A stretch of DNA of 64,000 nucleotides from a plasmid. The notes below the pieces were generated by a model. The model saw nothing but the letters and a program-made list of their open reading frames with translations, had not been told where the DNA came from and did not search any database. Where the stretch lies: the sequence record NZ_CP104306.1. One strand, 5' to 3'. The position numbers and the translations under genes were made by a program. Numbering within the stretch: the first letter of the stretch is position 1; every line of letters starts with the position of its first letter. Positions 6,887-31,654 of this stretch are shown in pieces.

Positions 6887-7013
6887 AGAGTGCAAGCGCA
6901 ATCTAGTCAGATTGTGCTTTTTCTGTTATAATGAGAATACAAACAGGGAGCACCCCCATAAGAGTGCTCCCCTAGCAGAGCCGTTTAAGACGGCGGTAAC
7001 TATTAGGTTAAAT

Positions 7014-7050
7014 AACCGTCAGCTAGCCAAAGCGAAGACGGTTATTTTTC
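7014..7050 (+). terminator. Rho-independent terminator of the 5149..6886 operon
   Basis: aaccgtc...gacggtt stem followed by TTATTTTTC. An upstream hairpin at 6946..6972 (gggagcac/gtgctccc) precedes it. Confidence 0.55.
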
Positions 7051-7149
7051 TACCATTAGTCAAGTAAAACGTTGATTGCATAGGATTTCATATACAGGCT
7101 AAGCTTGTATATGAGGTCTTTTTTCAGTTGATTTGTGGAAAGCAATGCT

Positions 7150-8800
7150 TTGAAGGTAAACTAAATAAACCTCTTGAAACGTTAATTTTCCAAGATGCTA
7201 TACTGTCTTCATAGGCTGTATGAGTTACTGTCTTGGTTGAGACACAGTTGGCTCATAAACTTCATTGTGCAAAACTAGGTGGAAGATCATTCTATTTAGA
7301 CGACTCATAACCGCGACCGCAATCTTCTTGGTTCCCTTAGACTGAGAGGATTGCTTTTTCATTTGGTAGAAGTCGTTAAAGCGTGTCGGTCGATATGAGG
7401 ACGCACTGATAATATTAATGACTGTACGGTACAAGACCTTTCTTGCCAAAGGGTTCCCACGTTTTCGGATACGCTGTTCGGCCGTATAGTCCCCAGATTG
7501 GTAAGTGGTTAAATCAATACCAATATACGCGTTAATGGCATTGGCACTATGAAATCGCCGAATATCGCCTAATTCCGCGATAATACACAACGCTGATTTA
7601 AGCGCAATCCCAGGAATTGTCGTTAAAATTGCAACCTCAGGCAAGTTTGTACCAATTTTAGCCATCTCCTCAATTAAAGATTTTTTTGAGCGGTCGAGAC
7701 GTTCAACTTCATATGCTAACTCGGTAACTCGCTTAAGCGCGTATGAATCAATATCTACTGCTGGCCCTGAACTTTTGGCCAACTCCAGGAGATGTTCAGC
7801 TAAATGCTGAGCCCGTTTAGGGCCCATATTCTTTGAAGTAGCTTTCAATATAATTGACGTTAATTCGGTGGAACTATGTTGTAACACCAGATATGGGTGT
7901 GGAAATATCTGGACAATGTGCCAGTATAAGGCCCCCTCAGTCCTACTTAGAAAATGTTCTATTTCCGGGAAAGTAAGCTGTAATTCATGATGAAGGCGAT
8001 TCTTATTACGCACGACGTCGTCGTTGTGCTCTTGATAGATTCGATGTAGATCACGTAATTCTGTGTATTCAGGCTTTTCTTGAAACGATGGTGCAAAATT
8101 GTTTCTGGACATCGCTTCTGCCAGACCAACAGCGTCAACCGAATCTGTTTTGACAATTCTAAAACTGTCCATTACTTTCTTAGCTTTTAGGGGATTTATC
8201 TCAGTATACAGCCAACCGTTACGATGAAAAAATGCGCGCCACGGTCGTGAGTAGATTCCTGTTGATTCAAATATAATCTTTGGTTCCCTAAAGCTGTTTA
8301 ACTCATCTTCGAGTCGCTCAAACCCTTCACGATTGCTTGATAGCTTAAATTCTTTGATAACTTGTCTATCAATCAAAACGGCCACATTAGCTGTGTGTTT
8401 ACTGATATCAATACCAAATATGCATTCCATTTGATACACCACCTTTTGAAGTTGTTTCACCGACTCACTCATCTCAATTTTCAATACACGGCGTCAAGCG
8501 CCAACACTCTTCGATCGAGTTCATTGATGAATCTGCGAAGTTGCCAGTTTTTTTTGCGACGTCTTTGCGCCAAAATAACCTCCGACATGTCAACTCCGTT
8601 ACCACTGTACCAAAAAAGCTTAGTGGTGAATCACAACCCCGTCGGATCATGGTTCATCACTAAGCTTAGAATGTTTTTTTGCTGATTTTTAATCAGCTCA
8701 ACAACTAATGCTATCAGGGCTACGACAAACGTGCCGAACCCTAGCATAAGCTGTAAAGCGTCCGAAATGGACACAAGGCTTCTCCTTTCGTTGGTATCGT
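7150..8800 (-). mobile_element. IS110-family insertion sequence (boundaries approximate; the family lacks terminal inverted repeats)
   Basis: Inferred from the transposase gene plus its long non-coding 5' end. The exact ends cannot be defined from the sequence alone. Confidence 0.3.
7225..8484 (-). CDS. IS110-family transposase (DEDD RuvC-like N-domain plus Transposase_20 C-domain)
   Basis: FGIDISKHT at the N-terminus and IPGIALKSALCIIAELGDIRRF...AYIGIDLTTYQSG in the C-domain. The true start is probably M at MECIFGIDISK. Confidence 0.8.
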   Translation of the reverse strand: MKIEMSESVKQLQKVVYQMECIFGIDISKHTANVAVLIDRQVIKEFKLSSNREGFERLEDELNSFREPKIIFESTGIYSRPWRAFFHRNGWLYTEINPLKAKKVMDSFRIVKTDSVDAVGLAEAMSRNNFAPSFQEKPEYTELRDLHRIYQEHNDDVVRNKNRLHHELQLTFPEIEHFLSRTEGALYWHIVQIFPHPYLVLQHSSTELTSIILKATSKNMGPKRAQHLAEHLLELAKSSGPAVDIDSYALKRVTELAYEVERLDRSKKSLIEEMAKIGTNLPEVAILTTIPGIALKSALCIIAELGDIRRFHSANAINAYIGIDLTTYQSGDYTAEQRIRKRGNPLARKVLYRTVINIISASSYRPTRFNDFYQMKKQSSQSKGTKKIAVAVMSRLNRMIFHLVLHNEVYEPTVSQPRQ

Positions 8801-8880
8801 GGTACGTTGGTTTTTACACCATAAGCACCACCTCCAATCTACGGAAGTCGCCACCGTCTTTAACTTTTCTGCCACGTCTA
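8485..8880 (-). ncRNA. Candidate IS110 non-coding (bridge-RNA-like) region in the 5' end of the element
   Basis: About 400 bp of non-coding sequence upstream of the recombinase. It contains a 15-bp stem hairpin at 8616..8667 (aagcttagtggtgaa / ttcatcactaagctt) and further hairpins. IS110-group elements are known to encode a bridge RNA in this position. Confidence 0.2.
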
Positions 8881-9113
8881 GTATAGCATATAATTGGCTT
8901 CGTTCCTAGAGGCGCAAGGCATACAGCAGTCTTGCTACCGAAAAAAAGCCTCTTCGGCCAAGGCCGAGAAGCGTGGGGCGCCTGCCCCGCCCACGCGCTT
9001 CGGGCATCTGCCTGCCGCGAGGATTAGATCCGATCTCGGCAACATGATGCAACGGAACGGCAAAACCCAGCCGTTCTCGTCGCCAGCTCGACTGAAACCC
9101 AGCAGGTAGGGCA

Positions 9114-28801: not shown

Positions 28802-29029
28802 TTAACCTGCCAAGCCTTGTAACCAAGCAACTGCGGCAGAAGCGAAAATAACTACAATCAGCCCAATAGCAACATTGGTCATACCATCACGCGCCTCGCG
28901 GATTTTCTGTTGATCCTTGGTCATGTGAGCAATACCCATTAAGCCAAACTTGACTGCCGCATAGCCGCCGGCAATGGCAATAATAAAACCTAAAATAGCG
29001 CTCAATAAAGCGATGACTTTTCCTTGCAT
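28802..29029 (-). CDS. Small two-TM membrane protein (VirB2/pilin-like candidate)
   Basis: A 75-aa protein with two hydrophobic helices. It sits at the 5' end of the T4SS operon. Confidence 0.35.
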   Translation of the reverse strand: MQGKVIALLSAILGFIIAIAGGYAAVKFGLMGIAHMTKDQQKIREARDGMTNVAIGLIVVIFASAAVAWLQGLAG

Positions 29030-29503: not shown

Positions 29504-29902
29504 TTATATCAAGTTTTTTGGGACGGACTTAATGCGTTCTCCGCTAATCACTAGACTGCCGTCTTTTTTTAATTCAGCTGACACCACCTTTAGAACCAAA
29601 ACATTTTTCAGCTGGTTAGGCGGCTTAATATTGCCAATCACCACCGTCATACCAGGCTTAATTGGATAATCAGCATGATCCTTAACCCATGAAGCTCGGA
29701 CTCGATAAGAAAGAGCATCATGATCTTTCGAAATCAACTTCAAATTGCGATCATGTAACCAAATACCTACAGGTTCAGCCATGTTCAGTCTCCTTTCTTT
29801 AACGCAAAAAACACCTGCAATTAGCTGGCATTTGGCGTTCATTATTTTGGCATTAGCCAAGGCCGCTTTGTGGAATCGAACCACGTTTCCCAGTAGCGGC
29901 AT
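29504..29902 (-). CDS. Hypothetical protein (start likely internal, at MAEPVGIW)
   Basis: ORF on the same strand, with a bidirectional terminator about 80 bp upstream. Confidence 0.3.
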   Translation of the reverse strand: MPLLGNVVRFHKAALANAKIMNAKCQLIAGVFCVKERRLNMAEPVGIWLHDRNLKLISKDHDALSYRVRASWVKDHADYPIKPGMTVVIGNIKPPNQLKNVLVLKVVSAELKKDGSLVISGERIKSVPKNLI

Positions 29903-29928
29903 CTGTTGTCCAGCGACACACCACTAAA

Positions 29929-29958
29929 TTGCGCAACAGAGCACAACTTTGGTATAAT
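29929..29958 (+). promoter_or_regulatory. Sigma-70-type promoter (TTGCGC, 18 nt, TATAAT) driving a short antisense RNA
   Basis: -35 at 29929..29934 and -10 at 29953..29958. The terminator lies only about 25 nt downstream. Confidence 0.4.
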
Positions 29959-29964
29959 GGAGTC

Positions 29965-30007
29965 ACGTTAATACCTAAGAAAAGCGCGCCCTAGGGCGCG
30001 CTTTTTG
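29965..30007 (+). ncRNA. Candidate short antisense RNA (RNA II-like antitoxin) overlapping the 3' end of the toxin mRNA
   Basis: Bounded by the promoter above and the bidirectional terminator. It is convergent with the toxin ORF. Confidence 0.35.
29981..30007. terminator. Bidirectional intrinsic terminator (aaaagcgcgccctagggcgcgcttttt)
   Basis: A perfect GC-rich palindrome flanked by A-runs and T-runs on both sides. It contains the toxin stop codon. Confidence 0.6.
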
Positions 30008-30149
30008 CTTGTTGACGATGTTTTTTAAGAGCTTCCTGTCGTTCCTCTTTACGAGAACACAATCCGCTAATCCGAATAGATGCAAGTTCACACAAAAGGA
30101 TGAAGCCTAGTAATACCCAGAAACTGCATTTAAGAATCAACCACAGCAT
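29991..30149 (-). CDS. Fst/Ldr-like type I toxin candidate (52-aa hydrophobic peptide)
   Basis: MLWLILKCSFWVLLGFILLCELASIRISGLCSRKEERQEALKKHRQQAKSAP is one transmembrane helix followed by a charged tail. A strong SD (aaaggag) lies 8 nt upstream. A minus-strand promoter TTGATA-18-TATGAT sits at 30205..30234. Confidence 0.45.
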   Translation of the reverse strand: MLWLILKCSFWVLLGFILLCELASIRISGLCSRKEERQEALKKHRQQAKSAP

Positions 30150-30362
30150 GTCATTCGCTCCTTTATTTTTTGACTTTTGAATTGTAGGACGGTAGAAAAC
30201 CTGAATCATAAAGCCGCTTTTCTGTGCATATCAAGCGCCGTATCAAGGTTGATGGACGTTCTTTGGTAGCCTGGCAAAGTACGCGAAGCTACGCTTTCTC
30301 CTCTGTTGTTATGGTGATTTGGTAACGTTGATTATCTTTGCTGACTGTCATCTTTCCTCCAT

Positions 30363-30415
30363 TCAAAAAGTGCCATCACTTCTCCTGACTAAGTCAAGAA
30401 AGTGATGGCACTTTC
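30363..30415 (-). terminator. Hairpin terminator downstream of the 30426..30680 gene
   Basis: aagtgccatcactt ... aagtgatggcactt inverted repeat. Confidence 0.4.
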
Positions 30416-30425
30416 TGGTTATAGA

Positions 30426-30680
30426 TTAGCGCATTTTAAAACCAAGCAACATACTTATCAGTAGTACGATGCTACAAGTGAATGAGGCTGCTTGCAGCGA
30501 AAGCGAGCGTCTAGTAACCAGCATTCCCGCAATGATCAGAATGATTTGGATCACCGCAACAATGATCATAAAAGCTCGATTATACCGTCCCGCTTGCGTG
30601 GTGATTTTTTCCTTGCGAGTTAACCAAATGATGACCAATATCAAAATGATCGTTAGTAAATTCCAAACTGCTACAAGCAT
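30426..30680 (-). CDS. Small membrane protein (84 aa, 3 TM)
   Basis: Strongly hydrophobic, with RBS aaaggagg upstream. Confidence 0.4.
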   Translation of the reverse strand: MLVAVWNLLTIILILVIIWLTRKEKITTQAGRYNRAFMIIVAVIQIILIIAGMLVTRRSLSLQAASFTCSIVLLISMLLGFKMR

Positions 30681-31124
30681 GGTACACGCCTCCTTTTACT
30701 CATATTAAAGCCGTTTGTGCCTTTACAGCAACATAAAAACCCCGACTAGCAGTAAAGGACTAGTCGAGGAATGAGCCTGAAAAACAAATGATATAAGGAT
30801 GACACAGCGCATAACCTATTTTCCGCTAGGTCTCTGGTGCCCGTTTACAACATTGGAGTCTTAAGAAAGGGAACGTTCGTCACTTGATAGTCGATCGAAA
30901 TCACAATACAGCTCTCCAATATCTGCGCACCCTTAGCATAACAAAAATGACTTTTATAGCCAAGGCGGTTGCGTTATTTCTTGCTGTCTAATGTTCCAGT
31001 CTGCAACAAAGAAGCCAACTCATGAAGTTGTCCTTTGAAGATGAAGCATTCATAGTGTTGAAACACATTTATACTTAGTAGACACTCCCATAACTACCGA
31101 AGAATGGTTTCCCTAGAACTAATG

Positions 31125-31514: not shown

Positions 31515-31654
31515 GTTCTTGACCTCATTTCTTACAGAAGTATTTTCTGCTGACCCCTATATCATAAGATAATGCTAGTCATGATGCCATCTTTAACCTT
31601 TGCATATAGCGCTGCTTGTAGGAATCGAACCTACCTAAAACATTAGCAACATCA

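What the first reader, a model, noticed from the sequence alone, without database searches (positions are those of the whole stretch)
29929..30234. Fst/par-like type I toxin-antitoxin: 52-aa hydrophobic peptide with convergent antisense RNA sharing a bidirectional terminator
On the minus strand there is a promoter (TTGATA-18-TATGAT, 30205..30234) and a strong SD. These precede an ORF encoding MLWLILKCSFWVLLGFILLCELASIRISGLCSRKEERQEALKKHRQQAKSAP, which is one transmembrane helix followed by a charged tail. Its stop codon lies inside the perfect palindromic terminator 29981..30007. On the plus strand a consensus promoter (TTGCGC-18-TATAAT, 29929..29958) sits only about 25 nt from the same terminator. 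This would give an antisense RNA of about 45 nt overlapping the toxin 3' end. Convergent RNAs sharing a bidirectional terminator is the arrangement of the enterococcal par (Fst/RNAII) addiction module.
Basis: partly seen in the sequence, partly recalled or inferred. Interest (0 to 1): 0.6.

Follow-up and report, generated by a model that had tools for sequence, protein, structure and literature searches.

The report
Conjugation-operon small membrane protein, antisense promoter
The 52-residue hydrophobic peptide is not an Fst/par toxin but a member of a widespread, unnamed family of tiny membrane proteins found inside the gene arrays of plasmids, conjugative elements and phage-like elements; the hairpin and the opposing promoter behind it are real and conserved, so a roughly 45-base antisense RNA is probably made there, most likely to regulate the conjugation genes.

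Summary
The window is a Lacticaseibacillus paracasei conjugative plasmid.

The toxin-antitoxin reading fails most tests:
- The "toxin promoter" lies inside a 62-aa ribbon-helix-helix (RHH)-like ORF.
- The peptide is the second cistron of a conserved RHH-peptide pair at the head of the type IV secretion (T4SS) gene cluster.
- It matches no Fst or other toxin model.
- There is no second complementarity between the predicted small RNA and the peptide's translation start, so no DRa/DRb equivalent.

A profile search places the peptide in an unannotated family of at least 107 clusters. Members have one transmembrane helix followed by a CxVSGRCSREEE-type motif. In the seven remote loci inspected, the gene sits co-directionally inside mobile-element gene arrays, usually overlapping its neighbours, with no terminator or antisense promoter behind it.

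Two features hold up. The hairpin shows 5 of 11 compensatory pairs. The convergent extended -10 promoter is kept in all diverged plasmid lineages.

Best reading: a cis-antisense RNA of about 45 nt at a bidirectional terminator that gates entry to the T4SS genes. Whether it is transcribed and what it does are untested.

The parts
29991..30149 (-). 52-aa single-pass membrane peptide ORF (MLWLIL...SGLCSRKEERQ...SAP). It belongs to an unnamed family with a transmembrane helix followed by a CxVSGRCSREEE-type motif.
   Evidence: Searches give the ORF. One search gives dN/dS of 0.14-0.35 between the most diverged close clades. Searches show syntenic orthologues with synonymous changes in the SG-x-x-SR-x-EERQ motif. 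define the wider family.
30158..30163 (-). SD (AAGGAG) of the peptide ORF, overlapping the TAA stop of the upstream RHH-like ORF.
   Evidence: It is conserved as GAGGAG in other clades.
30163..30351 (-). 62-codon RHH (CopG-like) ORF and first cistron. In this window it is a pseudogene, with an in-frame TAG at 30291..30289 and also P16T.
   Evidence: It is intact and annotated as hypothetical (WP_080643567, WP_003592570) in related plasmids. The AlphaFold model is beta-alpha-alpha with pLDDT 74. The top Foldseek hits are all RHH proteins but with E > 1. One UniRef name reads 'CopG family'.
30205..30234 (-). It lies inside the RHH-like ORF and is probably a by-product of coding sequence.
   Evidence: One search shows site frequency at chance level. 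One search shows it is conserved only where the codons are. Searches show it is absent in L009 and L012.
29980..30006 (.). Bidirectional intrinsic terminator hairpin: 7 GC pairs plus 4 AU pairs, loop CUAG, with T-rich tracts on both strands.
   Evidence: The orthologues are flagged. Covariation gives 5 of 11 pairs compensatory, 94.8% of cells paired, and 0 of 500 shuffles reaching the observed value.
29929..29958 (+). Convergent extended -10 promoter: -35 TTGCGC, 18-nt spacer ending in TGg, -10 TATAAT.
   Evidence: One search shows it is unique in the window. Searches show the TTGNNN / TGn / TAnnnT pattern at the same position in 12 of the 13 loci that retain the region. L006 lacks only the TG. 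Flanking sequence diverges.
29965..30010 (+). Predicted cis-antisense RNA of about 45 nt: a conserved 5' tail (A)CGUUAAUACCUAA, then the hairpin, then a U tract. The start site is inferred from the -10 position.
   Evidence: The tail block CGTTA....CTAA is conserved in all lineages. No transcript data exist.
29862..29900 (-). tRNA-like minihelix (acceptor-like stem plus a T-arm with GGTTCGATTCC) in the leader between the hairpin and the next gene.
   Evidence: Searches show compensatory changes in both stems across loci. ARAGORN calls no tRNA. The leader fold has z = -3.55.
29803..29838 (-). Second hairpin followed by U6, directly before the SD of the 92-aa ORF. It looks like a terminator or attenuator.
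   Evidence: One search gives the fold. Searches show single-sided wobble-to-Watson-Crick changes that keep the pairing in L009.
29504..29782 (-). 92-aa ORF, the first gene after the leader. It is followed by the T4SS pilin-like gene (28802..29029), an Ig-like surface protein, PcfB and a VirD4-like coupling protein in relatives.
   Evidence: PF18895 T4SS_pilin, E = 4.6e-7.
30367..30413 (-). Hairpin or inverted repeat with a T run, between the 84-aa membrane ORF (30680..30426) and the RHH-like ORF. It may be the terminator of the upstream gene or an operator.
   Evidence: The arms covary with L009, L012 and L013, where they read GTGACGTCAC twice.

Best explanation
The locus is the regulatory head of the transfer (T4SS) region of a Lacticaseibacillus conjugative plasmid, not a par-type addiction module.

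Two small genes are co-transcribed on the minus strand:
- A CopG-like RHH DNA-binding protein, inactivated here by a nonsense mutation.
- Directly coupled to it, a 52-aa single-pass membrane protein of a widespread unnamed family. Members have a transmembrane helix followed by a cytosolic CxVSGRCSREEE-type motif. The family travels in gene arrays of plasmids, conjugative or mobilisable elements and phage-like elements.

The pair ends at a GC-rich hairpin that can terminate transcription in both directions. Beyond it, a conserved extended -10 promoter fires back toward the hairpin. This should give an RNA of about 45 nt made of a conserved 14-nt tail plus the terminator stem-loop.

That RNA is perfectly complementary to the sense RNA across the hairpin. 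Its tail is complementary to the 14 nt just past the hairpin, which only read-through transcripts contain. I infer that it acts on transcripts crossing the terminator. It could do so by duplex formation and cleavage, by enforcing termination, or by promoter collision. The effect would be to limit expression of the downstream T4SS genes, for which no promoter of their own is evident.

Shown: coding conservation, family context, hairpin covariation, promoter conservation.
Inferred: that the RNA is made, its 5' end, and its regulatory effect.
For: Context:
- The plasmid identity and the conserved synteny are shown. The order is HU, then RHH-like, then peptide, then leader, then the 92-aa ORF, T4SS pilin-like gene, PcfB and VirD4.

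The peptide is translated:
- dN/dS is 0.14-0.35 between the most diverged close clades.
- The SG-x-x-SR-x-EERQ motif is kept through synonymous changes in orthologues that are 37-46% identical.
- In L009 and L012 the ORF overlaps the RHH stop codon by 7 nt.

Family:
- A profile search found 112 proteins at E <= 1e-3. All 107 newly found remote hits have the transmembrane-helix-plus-motif architecture, with a median length of 47 aa.
- Contexts: after a relaxase and before a coupling protein (L014-16); between VirB4/M23 peptidase and a coupling protein (L017-18); near a SpaA-like surface protein and a primase (L020-21); on a plasmid (L022); in phage-like arrays (L023, L026).
- The gene is always co-directional with its neighbours. 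In 5 of 7 loci the next gene overlaps it. None has a downstream terminator or antisense promoter.

Hairpin:
- -20.7 kcal/mol, with 5 of 11 compensatory pairs.
- In L009 the block CAAGCAAAAAGC stays conserved although it is no longer coding. This fits a U-tract role on the plus strand.

Promoter:
- Unique in the window and conserved in 12 of 13 loci despite divergent flanks.

Downstream genes:
- No better-than-chance sense promoter lies between the hairpin and the T4SS genes.
- A structured leader with a second terminator-like hairpin precedes them.
Against: - There are no transcript data, so the small RNA, its start site and any effect are inferred.
- The RNA is complementary to the terminator and to sequence 3' of it, not to sequence 5' of it. 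The textbook countertranscript-attenuation geometry of pCF10 Anti-Q (PMC7117660) therefore does not apply directly.
- The promoter scan is crude, so an internal T4SS promoter may have been missed.
- In the closest relative of a different type (L028) there is no RHH ORF and no GC hairpin. The RNA element is therefore confined to one plasmid lineage.
- Both genes show truncated or frameshifted alleles in nature, so neither is strictly required for plasmid carriage.
- The function of the peptide family is unknown.
Confidence: 0.55

Rival explanations
1. A type I toxin-antitoxin of a new toxin family, with a par-like or TxpA/RatA-like layout. The 52-aa membrane peptide is toxic. The convergent RNA of about 45 nt pairs with the 3' end or terminator of its mRNA and represses or destabilises it, stabilising the plasmid.
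For: - The peptide is small and hydrophobic, with a charged tail.
- The convergent promoter and the shared bidirectional terminator are conserved. These are two of the par hallmarks listed in PMC7472228, which also gives RNA II as about 40 nt.
- The hairpin loops carry CUAG or UUAG, which fit a YUNR pattern.
- The peptide gene stays intact where the RHH gene is broken (window; L010).
Against: - No toxin HMM and no antitoxin covariance model match. In contrast, the plasmid's own Hol_Tox/RatA module is readily detected.
- There is no conserved promoter of its own, and the gene is translationally coupled to the upstream gene.
- There is no DRa/DRb-type complementarity to the translation start, and no mRNA structure that sequesters the SD.
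- In 7 sampled loci, family members are ordinary operon genes with no antisense element.
- The cassette always sits at the same syntenic position rather than moving about as a module.
- Frameshifted tails are tolerated.
Confidence: 0.12
2. There is no functional antisense RNA. The hairpin is simply the terminator of the RHH-peptide operon. The plus-strand promoter-like sequence is conserved for another reason, for example as a protein-binding site or operator, as part of a DNA-level signal of the transfer region, or as a promoter that works by occlusion or collision without a functional RNA product.
For: - The block between the -10 and the hairpin (CGTTAATACCTAA) is as conserved as the promoter hexamers. 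It could be a binding site.
- An RHH regulator is encoded next door.
- The tail has no significant trans target in the locus.
Against: - What is conserved is specifically the -35 TTG, the TGn and the TAnnnT at fixed 17-18 nt spacing. Spacer and flanks drift, as expected for a promoter.
- The plus-strand side of the hairpin keeps a good U tract, even where that sequence is non-coding.
Confidence: 0.2
3. The RHH protein and the membrane peptide form a protein-protein regulatory or addiction pair. Either the peptide sequesters or antagonises the RHH repressor at the membrane, or the RHH acts as an antitoxin to the peptide. The antisense promoter would be secondary.
For: - The two genes are adjacent and translationally coupled in all Lacticaseibacillus lineages.
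- The peptide carries a conserved cytosolic motif that could be a binding epitope.
- The top structural neighbours of the RHH model include RHH antitoxins (CopA_SO, AtaR, TacA), though with E > 1.
Against: - The RHH gene is knocked out in the window and altered in L010 while the peptide gene is intact. That is hard to reconcile with an essential antitoxin.
- Remote family members follow relaxases or unrelated small ORFs, not RHH genes.
- L028 has the peptide without an RHH ORF.
Confidence: 0.08

Closest known systems
par (Fst / RNA I / RNA II) of Enterococcus faecalis pAD1 and the Fst/Ldr type I toxin-antitoxin family (PMC7472228)
   Same: A small hydrophobic ORF. A convergent promoter giving an RNA of about 40-45 nt. 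One bidirectional intrinsic terminator shared by both transcripts. Location on a Gram-positive conjugative plasmid.
   Different: - The peptide is 52 aa and has no PxxxG or Fst signature, and no Fst_toxin hit.
- It has no promoter of its own and is the second cistron after an RHH-like gene.
- There are no DRa/DRb repeats or other complementarity to the translation start.
- There is no 5' stem-loop.
- Its wider family is not linked to antisense RNAs.
Countertranscript control of read-through into conjugation genes: Anti-Q/IRS1 of pCF10 and mD/t1 of pAD1 (PMC7117660; Tomita and Clewell 2000, cited there). The bidirectionality of t1 is from my memory and was not checked.
   Same: A short ORF followed by a factor-independent terminator that must be passed to express the transfer genes. 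A small RNA with a U tract transcribed from a convergent promoter and antisense to the sense leader. Position at the head of the transfer operon.
   Different: - There is no PrgX/TraA-type repressor and no pheromone or inhibitor peptide precursor.
- The RNA here is much shorter (about 45 nt, against about 100-200 nt).
- It is complementary to the terminator and to the 14 nt after it, not to the region before it. The way it could influence termination is therefore unclear.
TxpA/RatA-type (Hol_Tox) type I modules with 3'-overlapping antisense RNA
   Same: Convergent toxin mRNA and antisense RNA overlapping at their 3' ends.
   Different: Those are detected by Pfam PF16935 and Rfam RF01776/RF01492. 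Such a module is in fact present elsewhere in this window (6929..8895). The finding matches none of these models, and its overlap is only the terminator.
CopG/Arc/MetJ ribbon-helix-helix regulators and relaxosome accessory proteins of plasmids
   Same: The upstream 62-aa protein has the pattern RYQITITPEEKAQL...RPS..IRRLI and a predicted beta-alpha-alpha fold. Its nearest solved folds are RHH domains.
   Different: No Pfam or NCBIfam model matches. The Foldseek E-values exceed 1. The family is confined to Lacticaseibacillus plasmids. DNA binding and its target are untested.

Membership tests
par / Fst-Ldr type I toxin-antitoxin | The toxin belongs to the Fst/Ldr peptide family (about 30 aa, PxxxG(C) motif in the transmembrane helix, Pfam Fst_toxin). 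| tested here: not met
   No Pfam hit at E <= 1 and no NCBIfam hit at E <= 10. The transmembrane helix of the 52-aa window peptide has no proline. The motif definition is taken from PMC7472228.
par / Fst-Ldr type I toxin-antitoxin | The toxin mRNA has a promoter of its own, convergent with the antitoxin promoter. | tested here: not met
   The TTGATA-18-TATGAT site lies inside the RHH-like ORF. Such sites occur at chance frequency. It is absent in orthologous L009 and L012. In those loci the ORF overlaps the upstream stop codon.
par / Fst-Ldr type I toxin-antitoxin | A convergent antitoxin promoter giving a short RNA. | tested here: met
   An extended -10 promoter is unique in the window and conserved in 12 of 13 loci. 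This is sequence evidence only. Transcription was not tested.
par / Fst-Ldr type I toxin-antitoxin | A bidirectional intrinsic terminator shared by both RNAs. | tested here: met
   with covariation.
par / Fst-Ldr type I toxin-antitoxin | Direct repeats (DRa/DRb) giving a second complementarity that covers the toxin's translation initiation region. | tested here: not met
   The duplex energy of the small-RNA tail against the translation start, and against the whole upstream mRNA, is no better than for shuffled tails in six lineages (fraction of shuffles at least as good 0.12-0.86). The tail sequence occurs only once in the window.
par / Fst-Ldr type I toxin-antitoxin | An intramolecular 5' stem-loop that sequesters the SD, within a structured toxin mRNA. 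| tested here: inconclusive
   The 227-nt putative mRNA folds no better than shuffles (z = -0.69). Only a 4-bp pairing touches the SD.
par / Fst-Ldr type I toxin-antitoxin | The peptide is toxic and the RNA neutralises it, giving post-segregational killing. | not testable with these tools
   This requires expression and plasmid-stability experiments.
Known antitoxin or toxin RNA families (Rfam) | A match to a curated covariance model such as the par RNA II antitoxin model, RatA or SR4. | tested here: not met
   Only sub-threshold hairpin matches were found in 29700..30500. RatA and rli28 hits occur elsewhere in the window.
Unnamed small membrane protein family (transmembrane helix + CxVSGRCSREEE motif) | An N-terminal transmembrane helix followed by a [AC]C-x-[VI]-S-G-x-C-S-R-x-E-E type juxtamembrane motif, with a length of about 35-60 aa. 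| tested here: met
   The window peptide carries IRISGLCSRKEERQ. Its syntenic orthologues carry AACVVSGRCSREEERQ.
Countertranscript-gated conjugation operons (pCF10 Anti-Q, pAD1 mD) | A terminator upstream of the transfer genes, plus a convergent small RNA antisense to the leader. | tested here: met
   Position relative to the T4SS genes is shown. The terminator and promoter are shown.
Countertranscript-gated conjugation operons (pCF10 Anti-Q, pAD1 mD) | The RNA is complementary to nascent leader sequence upstream of the terminator, so that pairing selects the terminator fold. A PrgX/TraA repressor and a pheromone-precursor ORF are present. | tested here: not met
   The complementarity covers only the hairpin and the 14 nt 3' of it. 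The neighbouring ORFs are an RHH-like protein and a 52-aa membrane protein, with no pheromone-type ORF.
Ribbon-helix-helix (CopG/Arc/MetJ) superfamily (upstream ORF) | A beta-alpha-alpha fold with an N-terminal DNA-reading strand. | tested here: inconclusive
   The model has helices at 16-29 and 33-49 after an extended N-terminus, with pLDDT 74. The top Foldseek hits are RHH domains (TM-score up to 0.81 when normalised to the target) but with E > 1. There is no Pfam or PDB sequence match.

The most novel reading that the evidence does not exclude
A previously unrecognised and widespread family of membrane proteins of about 35-60 aa (one transmembrane helix plus a cytosolic CxVSGRCSREEE motif) is a component of Gram-positive mobile-element gene arrays, often those for conjugation or mobilisation. 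In Lacticaseibacillus plasmids its gene, together with a lineage-specific RHH regulator, is wired to a conserved cis-antisense RNA of about 45 nt at a bidirectional terminator. Together these form a new kind of RNA-controlled gate at the entrance of the T4SS operon. The adjacent tRNA-like minihelices may take part in processing or antitermination.
Probability: 0.3. Interest if true: 0.55.

Novelty: new variant of a known kind. Interest (0 to 1): 0.35.

Why it matters
If the antisense RNA is real, it would be a compact, sequence-defined switch controlling transfer genes of dairy and probiotic Lacticaseibacillus plasmids. Almost nothing is known about how conjugation is regulated in that group.

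Separately, the peptide belongs to an unannotated family of at least 107 clusters of tiny membrane proteins embedded in mobile-element gene arrays. Gene callers and domain databases currently miss or ignore this family. Naming it and finding its partner would fill a gap in Gram-positive mobile-element biology.

As a toxin-antitoxin candidate the locus is weak. It is a useful caution that 'small hydrophobic ORF plus convergent promoter plus shared terminator' is not enough to call a par-like module.

Tried and rejected
- Pfam, NCBIfam and PHROGs scans of the peptide, its orthologues and its remote relatives found no family.
- An Rfam E-value scan of the locus found only generic hairpin noise.
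- A genome-contig scan with the RHH alignment confirmed no locus.
- A PDB sequence search with the RHH profile found nothing meaningful.
- A literature search for the motif string CSREEE returned one irrelevant paper.
- Tomita and Clewell 2000 (PMC94383) is not held. The pAD1 t1/mD details therefore rest on the review PMC7117660 and on memory.
- A GGTATTA match between the 3' flank and the peptide ORF was considered as a possible direct repeat. I rejected it because it is a 7-mer, is not conserved in relatives (GGATATTA), and is not significant in duplex tests.
- Lower synonymous divergence in the peptide ORF (pS 0.17-0.29) than in the RHH-like ORF (pS about 0.55) was considered as evidence for RNA-level constraint. 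I rejected it because the plasmids are mosaic. For example, L004 is nearly identical to the window's clade (L001) in the RHH-like ORF but diverged downstream, so recombination explains the difference.
- The 72-aa extended ORF (start at 30209) called by some gene finders was rejected. A 1-nt indel in other clades removes the extension, while the 52-aa frame and its SD persist.
- The element carrying GGTTCGATTCC was checked as a possible tRNA gene or fragment. ARAGORN finds none.
Full report
**What the window is**

The 801 bases around the finding match 31 plasmids at 83-99% identity. All are from Lacticaseibacillus (30 L. paracasei among those listed, one L. rhamnosus), and most are typed conjugative or mobilisable. 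In the annotated relatives every gene in this region lies on the strand that is the window's minus strand. The conserved order is:
- a SpaA-type surface protein;
- an HU-family protein;
- in some plasmids, a small membrane ORF;
- a 62-66 aa hypothetical protein;
- an unannotated gap;
- a 92-aa ORF, then further small ORFs including a T4SS pilin-like protein;
- an Ig-like surface protein, PcfB and a VirD4-like coupling protein.

The finding therefore sits at the head of the transfer region.

**Checking the observation**

The 52-aa ORF (30149..29991), its SD, the palindromic hairpin (29980..30006, with the TAG stop in the loop) and the plus-strand TTGCGC-18-TATAAT (29929..29958) are all present as described.

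The plus-strand promoter also has an extended -10 (TGgTATAAT). A strict pattern (TTGNNN, 17-19 nt ending in TGN, then TANNNT) occurs 12 times in the 128 kb of both strands. This site is the only TGnTATAAT and the only one followed by a strong hairpin with a T run.

The predicted 48-nt RNA folds into a 12-bp hairpin at -20.7 kcal/mol, z = -2.9. The hairpin is flagged as terminator-like on the minus strand, although the scan did not list it.

The minus-strand 'toxin promoter' (30234..30205) is also present, but promoter-like sites of that quality are no more common than in shuffled sequence (4 found, 6.1 expected).

Aligning the window with eight relatives shows that the stretch upstream of the peptide ORF is a 62-codon ORF (30351..30163). 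It is intact and annotated in every relative. In the window it carries CAG->TAG at codon 21 (30291..30289) and a P16T change.

The peptide's SD overlaps the ORF's stop codon.

The protein (MTVSKDNQRYQITITPEEKAQLRVLCQATKERPSTLIRRLI...) has the sequence pattern of a ribbon-helix-helix (RHH) regulator. The evidence for that fold is qualitative rather than statistical:
- An AlphaFold model gives an extended N-terminus followed by two helices, with pLDDT 74.
- The best Foldseek matches are almost all RHH domains (CopA_SO, PutA, ParG, AtaR, Arc, CopG), but at E > 1.
- No Pfam, NCBIfam or PDB sequence match exists.
- One UniRef entry calls a homologue 'CopG family'.

**Diverged orthologous loci**

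tblastn found plasmids in which the RHH-like protein is 57-61% identical and the peptide 44-46% identical.

In these plasmids (L009, L010, L012) the peptide ORF is annotated and overlaps the RHH stop by 7 nt, which indicates translational coupling. The transmembrane segment has diverged, but the motif SG(R/L)(C/Y)SR(E/K)EERQ is kept through synonymous changes. Among the closer clades, dN/dS is 0.14-0.35 at the largest divergences. The peptide is therefore a real, translated product.

Its C-terminal tail is not conserved:
- The ORF ends before the hairpin in L009, in the hairpin loop in the window, and after the hairpin in L012.
- It is truncated in L002.
- Natural frameshift variants exist.

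No sigma-70-like sense promoter exists inside the RHH-like ORF of L009 or L012.

**The two RNA-level features**

Both the hairpin and the convergent promoter are conserved.

On an alignment of seven distinct versions, the hairpin keeps 94.8% of cells paired. Five of its 11 pairs show compensatory changes, and 0 of 500 shuffles reach the observed values. In L009 the block CAAGCAAAAAGC is conserved although it lies after the stop codon. This fits its role as the U tract (GCUUUUUGCUUG) of a plus-strand terminator.

The convergent promoter is found at the same place in 12 of the 13 loci that retain the region. Its -35 reads TTGCGC, TTGCGT, TTGCAC, TTGTTC or TTGCAA. Its -10 reads TATAAT, TAAAAT, TAAGAT, TAAACT or TAAGCT. 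The spacing is 17-18 nt, the TGn is retained, and L006 lacks only the TG. The spacer and flanks drift.

Between the -10 and the hairpin, a block CGTTA(A/G)(T/C)..(C/T)CTAA is also conserved. This would be the 5' tail of an RNA of about 45 nt.

**Tests of the par/Fst interpretation**

The defining features are taken from the Weaver review (PMC7472228).

| Feature | Result |
|---|---|
| Fst/Ldr toxin with PxxxG motif | Not met |
| Toxin promoter of its own | Not met (see above) |
| Convergent antitoxin promoter | Met, on sequence evidence only |
| Bidirectional terminator | Met |
| DRa/DRb complementarity to the toxin's translation start | Not met |
| 5' stem-loop or structured toxin mRNA | Not supported (z = -0.69) |

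For the DRa/DRb test, the small-RNA tail pairs with the translation start and with the rest of the upstream mRNA no better than shuffled tails in six lineages. The tail sequence is unique in the window.

No Rfam antitoxin or toxin RNA model matches the locus. By contrast, a standard type I module elsewhere in the same window is detected easily. It comprises a Hol_Tox toxin (Pfam E = 1.4e-15) within an rli28-type RNA and a RatA antitoxin RNA, and it has been split by an IS110-family element.

**The peptide's family**

An exhaustive profile search with the peptide alignment returned 112 proteins at E <= 1e-3. All 107 newly found remote ones share the same architecture: an N-terminal transmembrane helix followed by ...[AC]C(V/I)(V/I)SG(R)CSREEE.... 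Their median length is 47 aa. They have no Pfam, NCBIfam or PHROG family, and no informative name.

Their contexts are as follows:
- The ORF overlaps the stop of a MOB relaxase and precedes a TraG/VirD4 coupling protein, with VirB4 and an M23 peptidase upstream (L014-16).
- It lies between VirB4/M23 peptidase and the coupling protein (L017-18).
- It lies between a SpaA-type surface protein and a DnaG/Toprim primase (L020-21).
- It lies on a plasmid with ParA, PriCT_1 and pXO2-34 (L022).
- It lies in phage-like or plasmid-like early gene arrays (L023, L024, L026).

In all seven loci examined the gene is co-directional with its neighbours. In five the next gene overlaps it. None has a strong downstream hairpin or an antisense extended -10 promoter. 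This is the behaviour of an ordinary small operon gene of mobile elements, not of a tightly silenced stand-alone toxin gene.

**Most likely mechanism**

The RHH-peptide pair is transcribed from upstream and ends at a bidirectional terminator. The convergent promoter produces a short cis-antisense RNA consisting of the conserved tail plus the terminator hairpin.

The tail is complementary to the 14 nt just beyond the hairpin on the sense strand, which only read-through transcripts contain. No better-than-chance sense promoter is seen between the hairpin and the T4SS genes. A highly structured leader precedes the 92-aa ORF (z = -3.55). It contains a tRNA-like minihelix and a second hairpin followed by U6.

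From this I infer that the RNA acts on transcripts entering the T4SS operon. In layout this resembles the Anti-Q/mD countertranscripts of enterococcal pheromone plasmids (PMC7117660). The geometry differs, though, because complementarity lies at and after the terminator rather than before it. There is also no PrgX/TraA homologue and no pheromone ORF.

Transcription, the 5' end and any effect are all inferred. I put about 0.55 on this reading, 0.2 on 'conserved promoter-like DNA without a functional RNA product', 0.12 on a novel type I toxin-antitoxin, and 0.08 on an RHH-peptide protein pair. The remainder is unassigned.

**Caveats**

- The RNA element is confined to one plasmid lineage. In L028, the closest relative of another type, the peptide is present without an RHH ORF or a GC hairpin.
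- Both genes decay in some plasmids. The RHH gene has a nonsense mutation here, an altered N-terminus in L010 and 41-aa truncations elsewhere. The peptide gene is frameshifted in some plasmids and cut by an IS in L013.
- The lower synonymous divergence of the peptide ORF relative to the RHH-like ORF is explained by mosaic recombination, not by RNA constraint.

**Verdict**

The Fst/par toxin-antitoxin interpretation is not supported beyond the shared-terminator layout.

What is there is a small conjugation-associated membrane protein of an unnamed family, its RHH partner (broken in this copy), a bidirectional terminator and a conserved antisense promoter. It is of modest interest (0.35), mainly for the putative regulatory RNA and the unannotated protein family.

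Noticed in passing
window 6929..8895: A recognisable type I toxin-antitoxin of the Hol_Tox/TxpA-RatA kind, split by an IS110-family insertion.
- The toxin RNA is the Rfam rli28 hit at 8895..8705 on the minus strand (80.9 bits).
- It contains a 47-aa ORF (8774..8631) that matches Pfam Hol_Tox at E = 1.4e-15 over residues 1-33 only.
- The IS110-family transposase ORF is at 8484..7225.
- The RatA antitoxin RNA (RF01776, 55.4 bits) is at 6929..7014 on the plus strand, on the far side of the IS.
   Followed up: partly
window 29862..29900 (-) and about 31605..31650 (-); also L004, L005, L009, L010, L012, L013, L028: A tRNA-like minihelix occurs twice in the window. It has a 6-7 bp acceptor-like stem enclosing a T-arm with the loop TTCGATT (GGTTCGATTCC). 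Each copy lies a short way downstream of a terminator hairpin.
- Both stems show compensatory changes between copies and between plasmids. The T-arm varies among CGTGG/CCACG, CGCGG/CCGCG and GTAGG/CCTAC. The acceptor-like stem varies among GCCGCT/AGCGGC, GCCGCA/TGCGGC and GTTGCT/AGCAGC.
- ARAGORN and Rfam call nothing.
- It may be an RNA processing, stabilising or antitermination signal.
   Followed up: partly
window 30291..30289 (-): The RHH-like gene of this plasmid copy is a pseudogene. It has CAG->TAG at codon 21 and a P16T change. Every plasmid compared has CAG there. Independent truncations and frameshifts of the same gene occur in other assemblies (41-aa alleles P0056-58; L010).
   Followed up: yes
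window 30963..30740 (-): A second extended -10 promoter (TTGGCT-N17-TATGCT with TGt) lies on the minus strand. It is followed about 190 nt later by a strong terminator (30769..30740, 11 pairs plus T5), with no ORF of 30 aa or more on that strand in between. It sits between the HU gene and the 84-aa membrane ORF. It may be an sRNA gene or a terminated leader.
   Followed up: no
window 30367..30413 (-): A long hairpin or inverted repeat with a T run lies directly before the SD of the RHH-like ORF. Its arms are GTGCCATCAC/GTGATGGCAC here and two copies of the palindrome GTGACGTCAC in L009, L012 and L013. It could be the terminator of the upstream gene, a 5' attenuator, or an operator for the RHH protein.
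   Followed up: no
window 29803..29838 (-): A hairpin followed by U6 lies immediately before the SD of the 92-aa ORF. Pairing is kept in L009 through wobble-to-Watson-Crick changes. It is a second terminator-like element that transcripts must pass to reach the T4SS genes.
   Followed up: partly
L013 2690..4290 and L008 1..1500: In some related plasmids the peptide gene or the downstream leader is cut by insertion sequences: ISLrh3 (IS5-like) directly after the RHH gene in L013, and an ISLre2-family element after the antisense promoter in L008. This spot is therefore a recurrent insertion or decay site.
   Followed up: no
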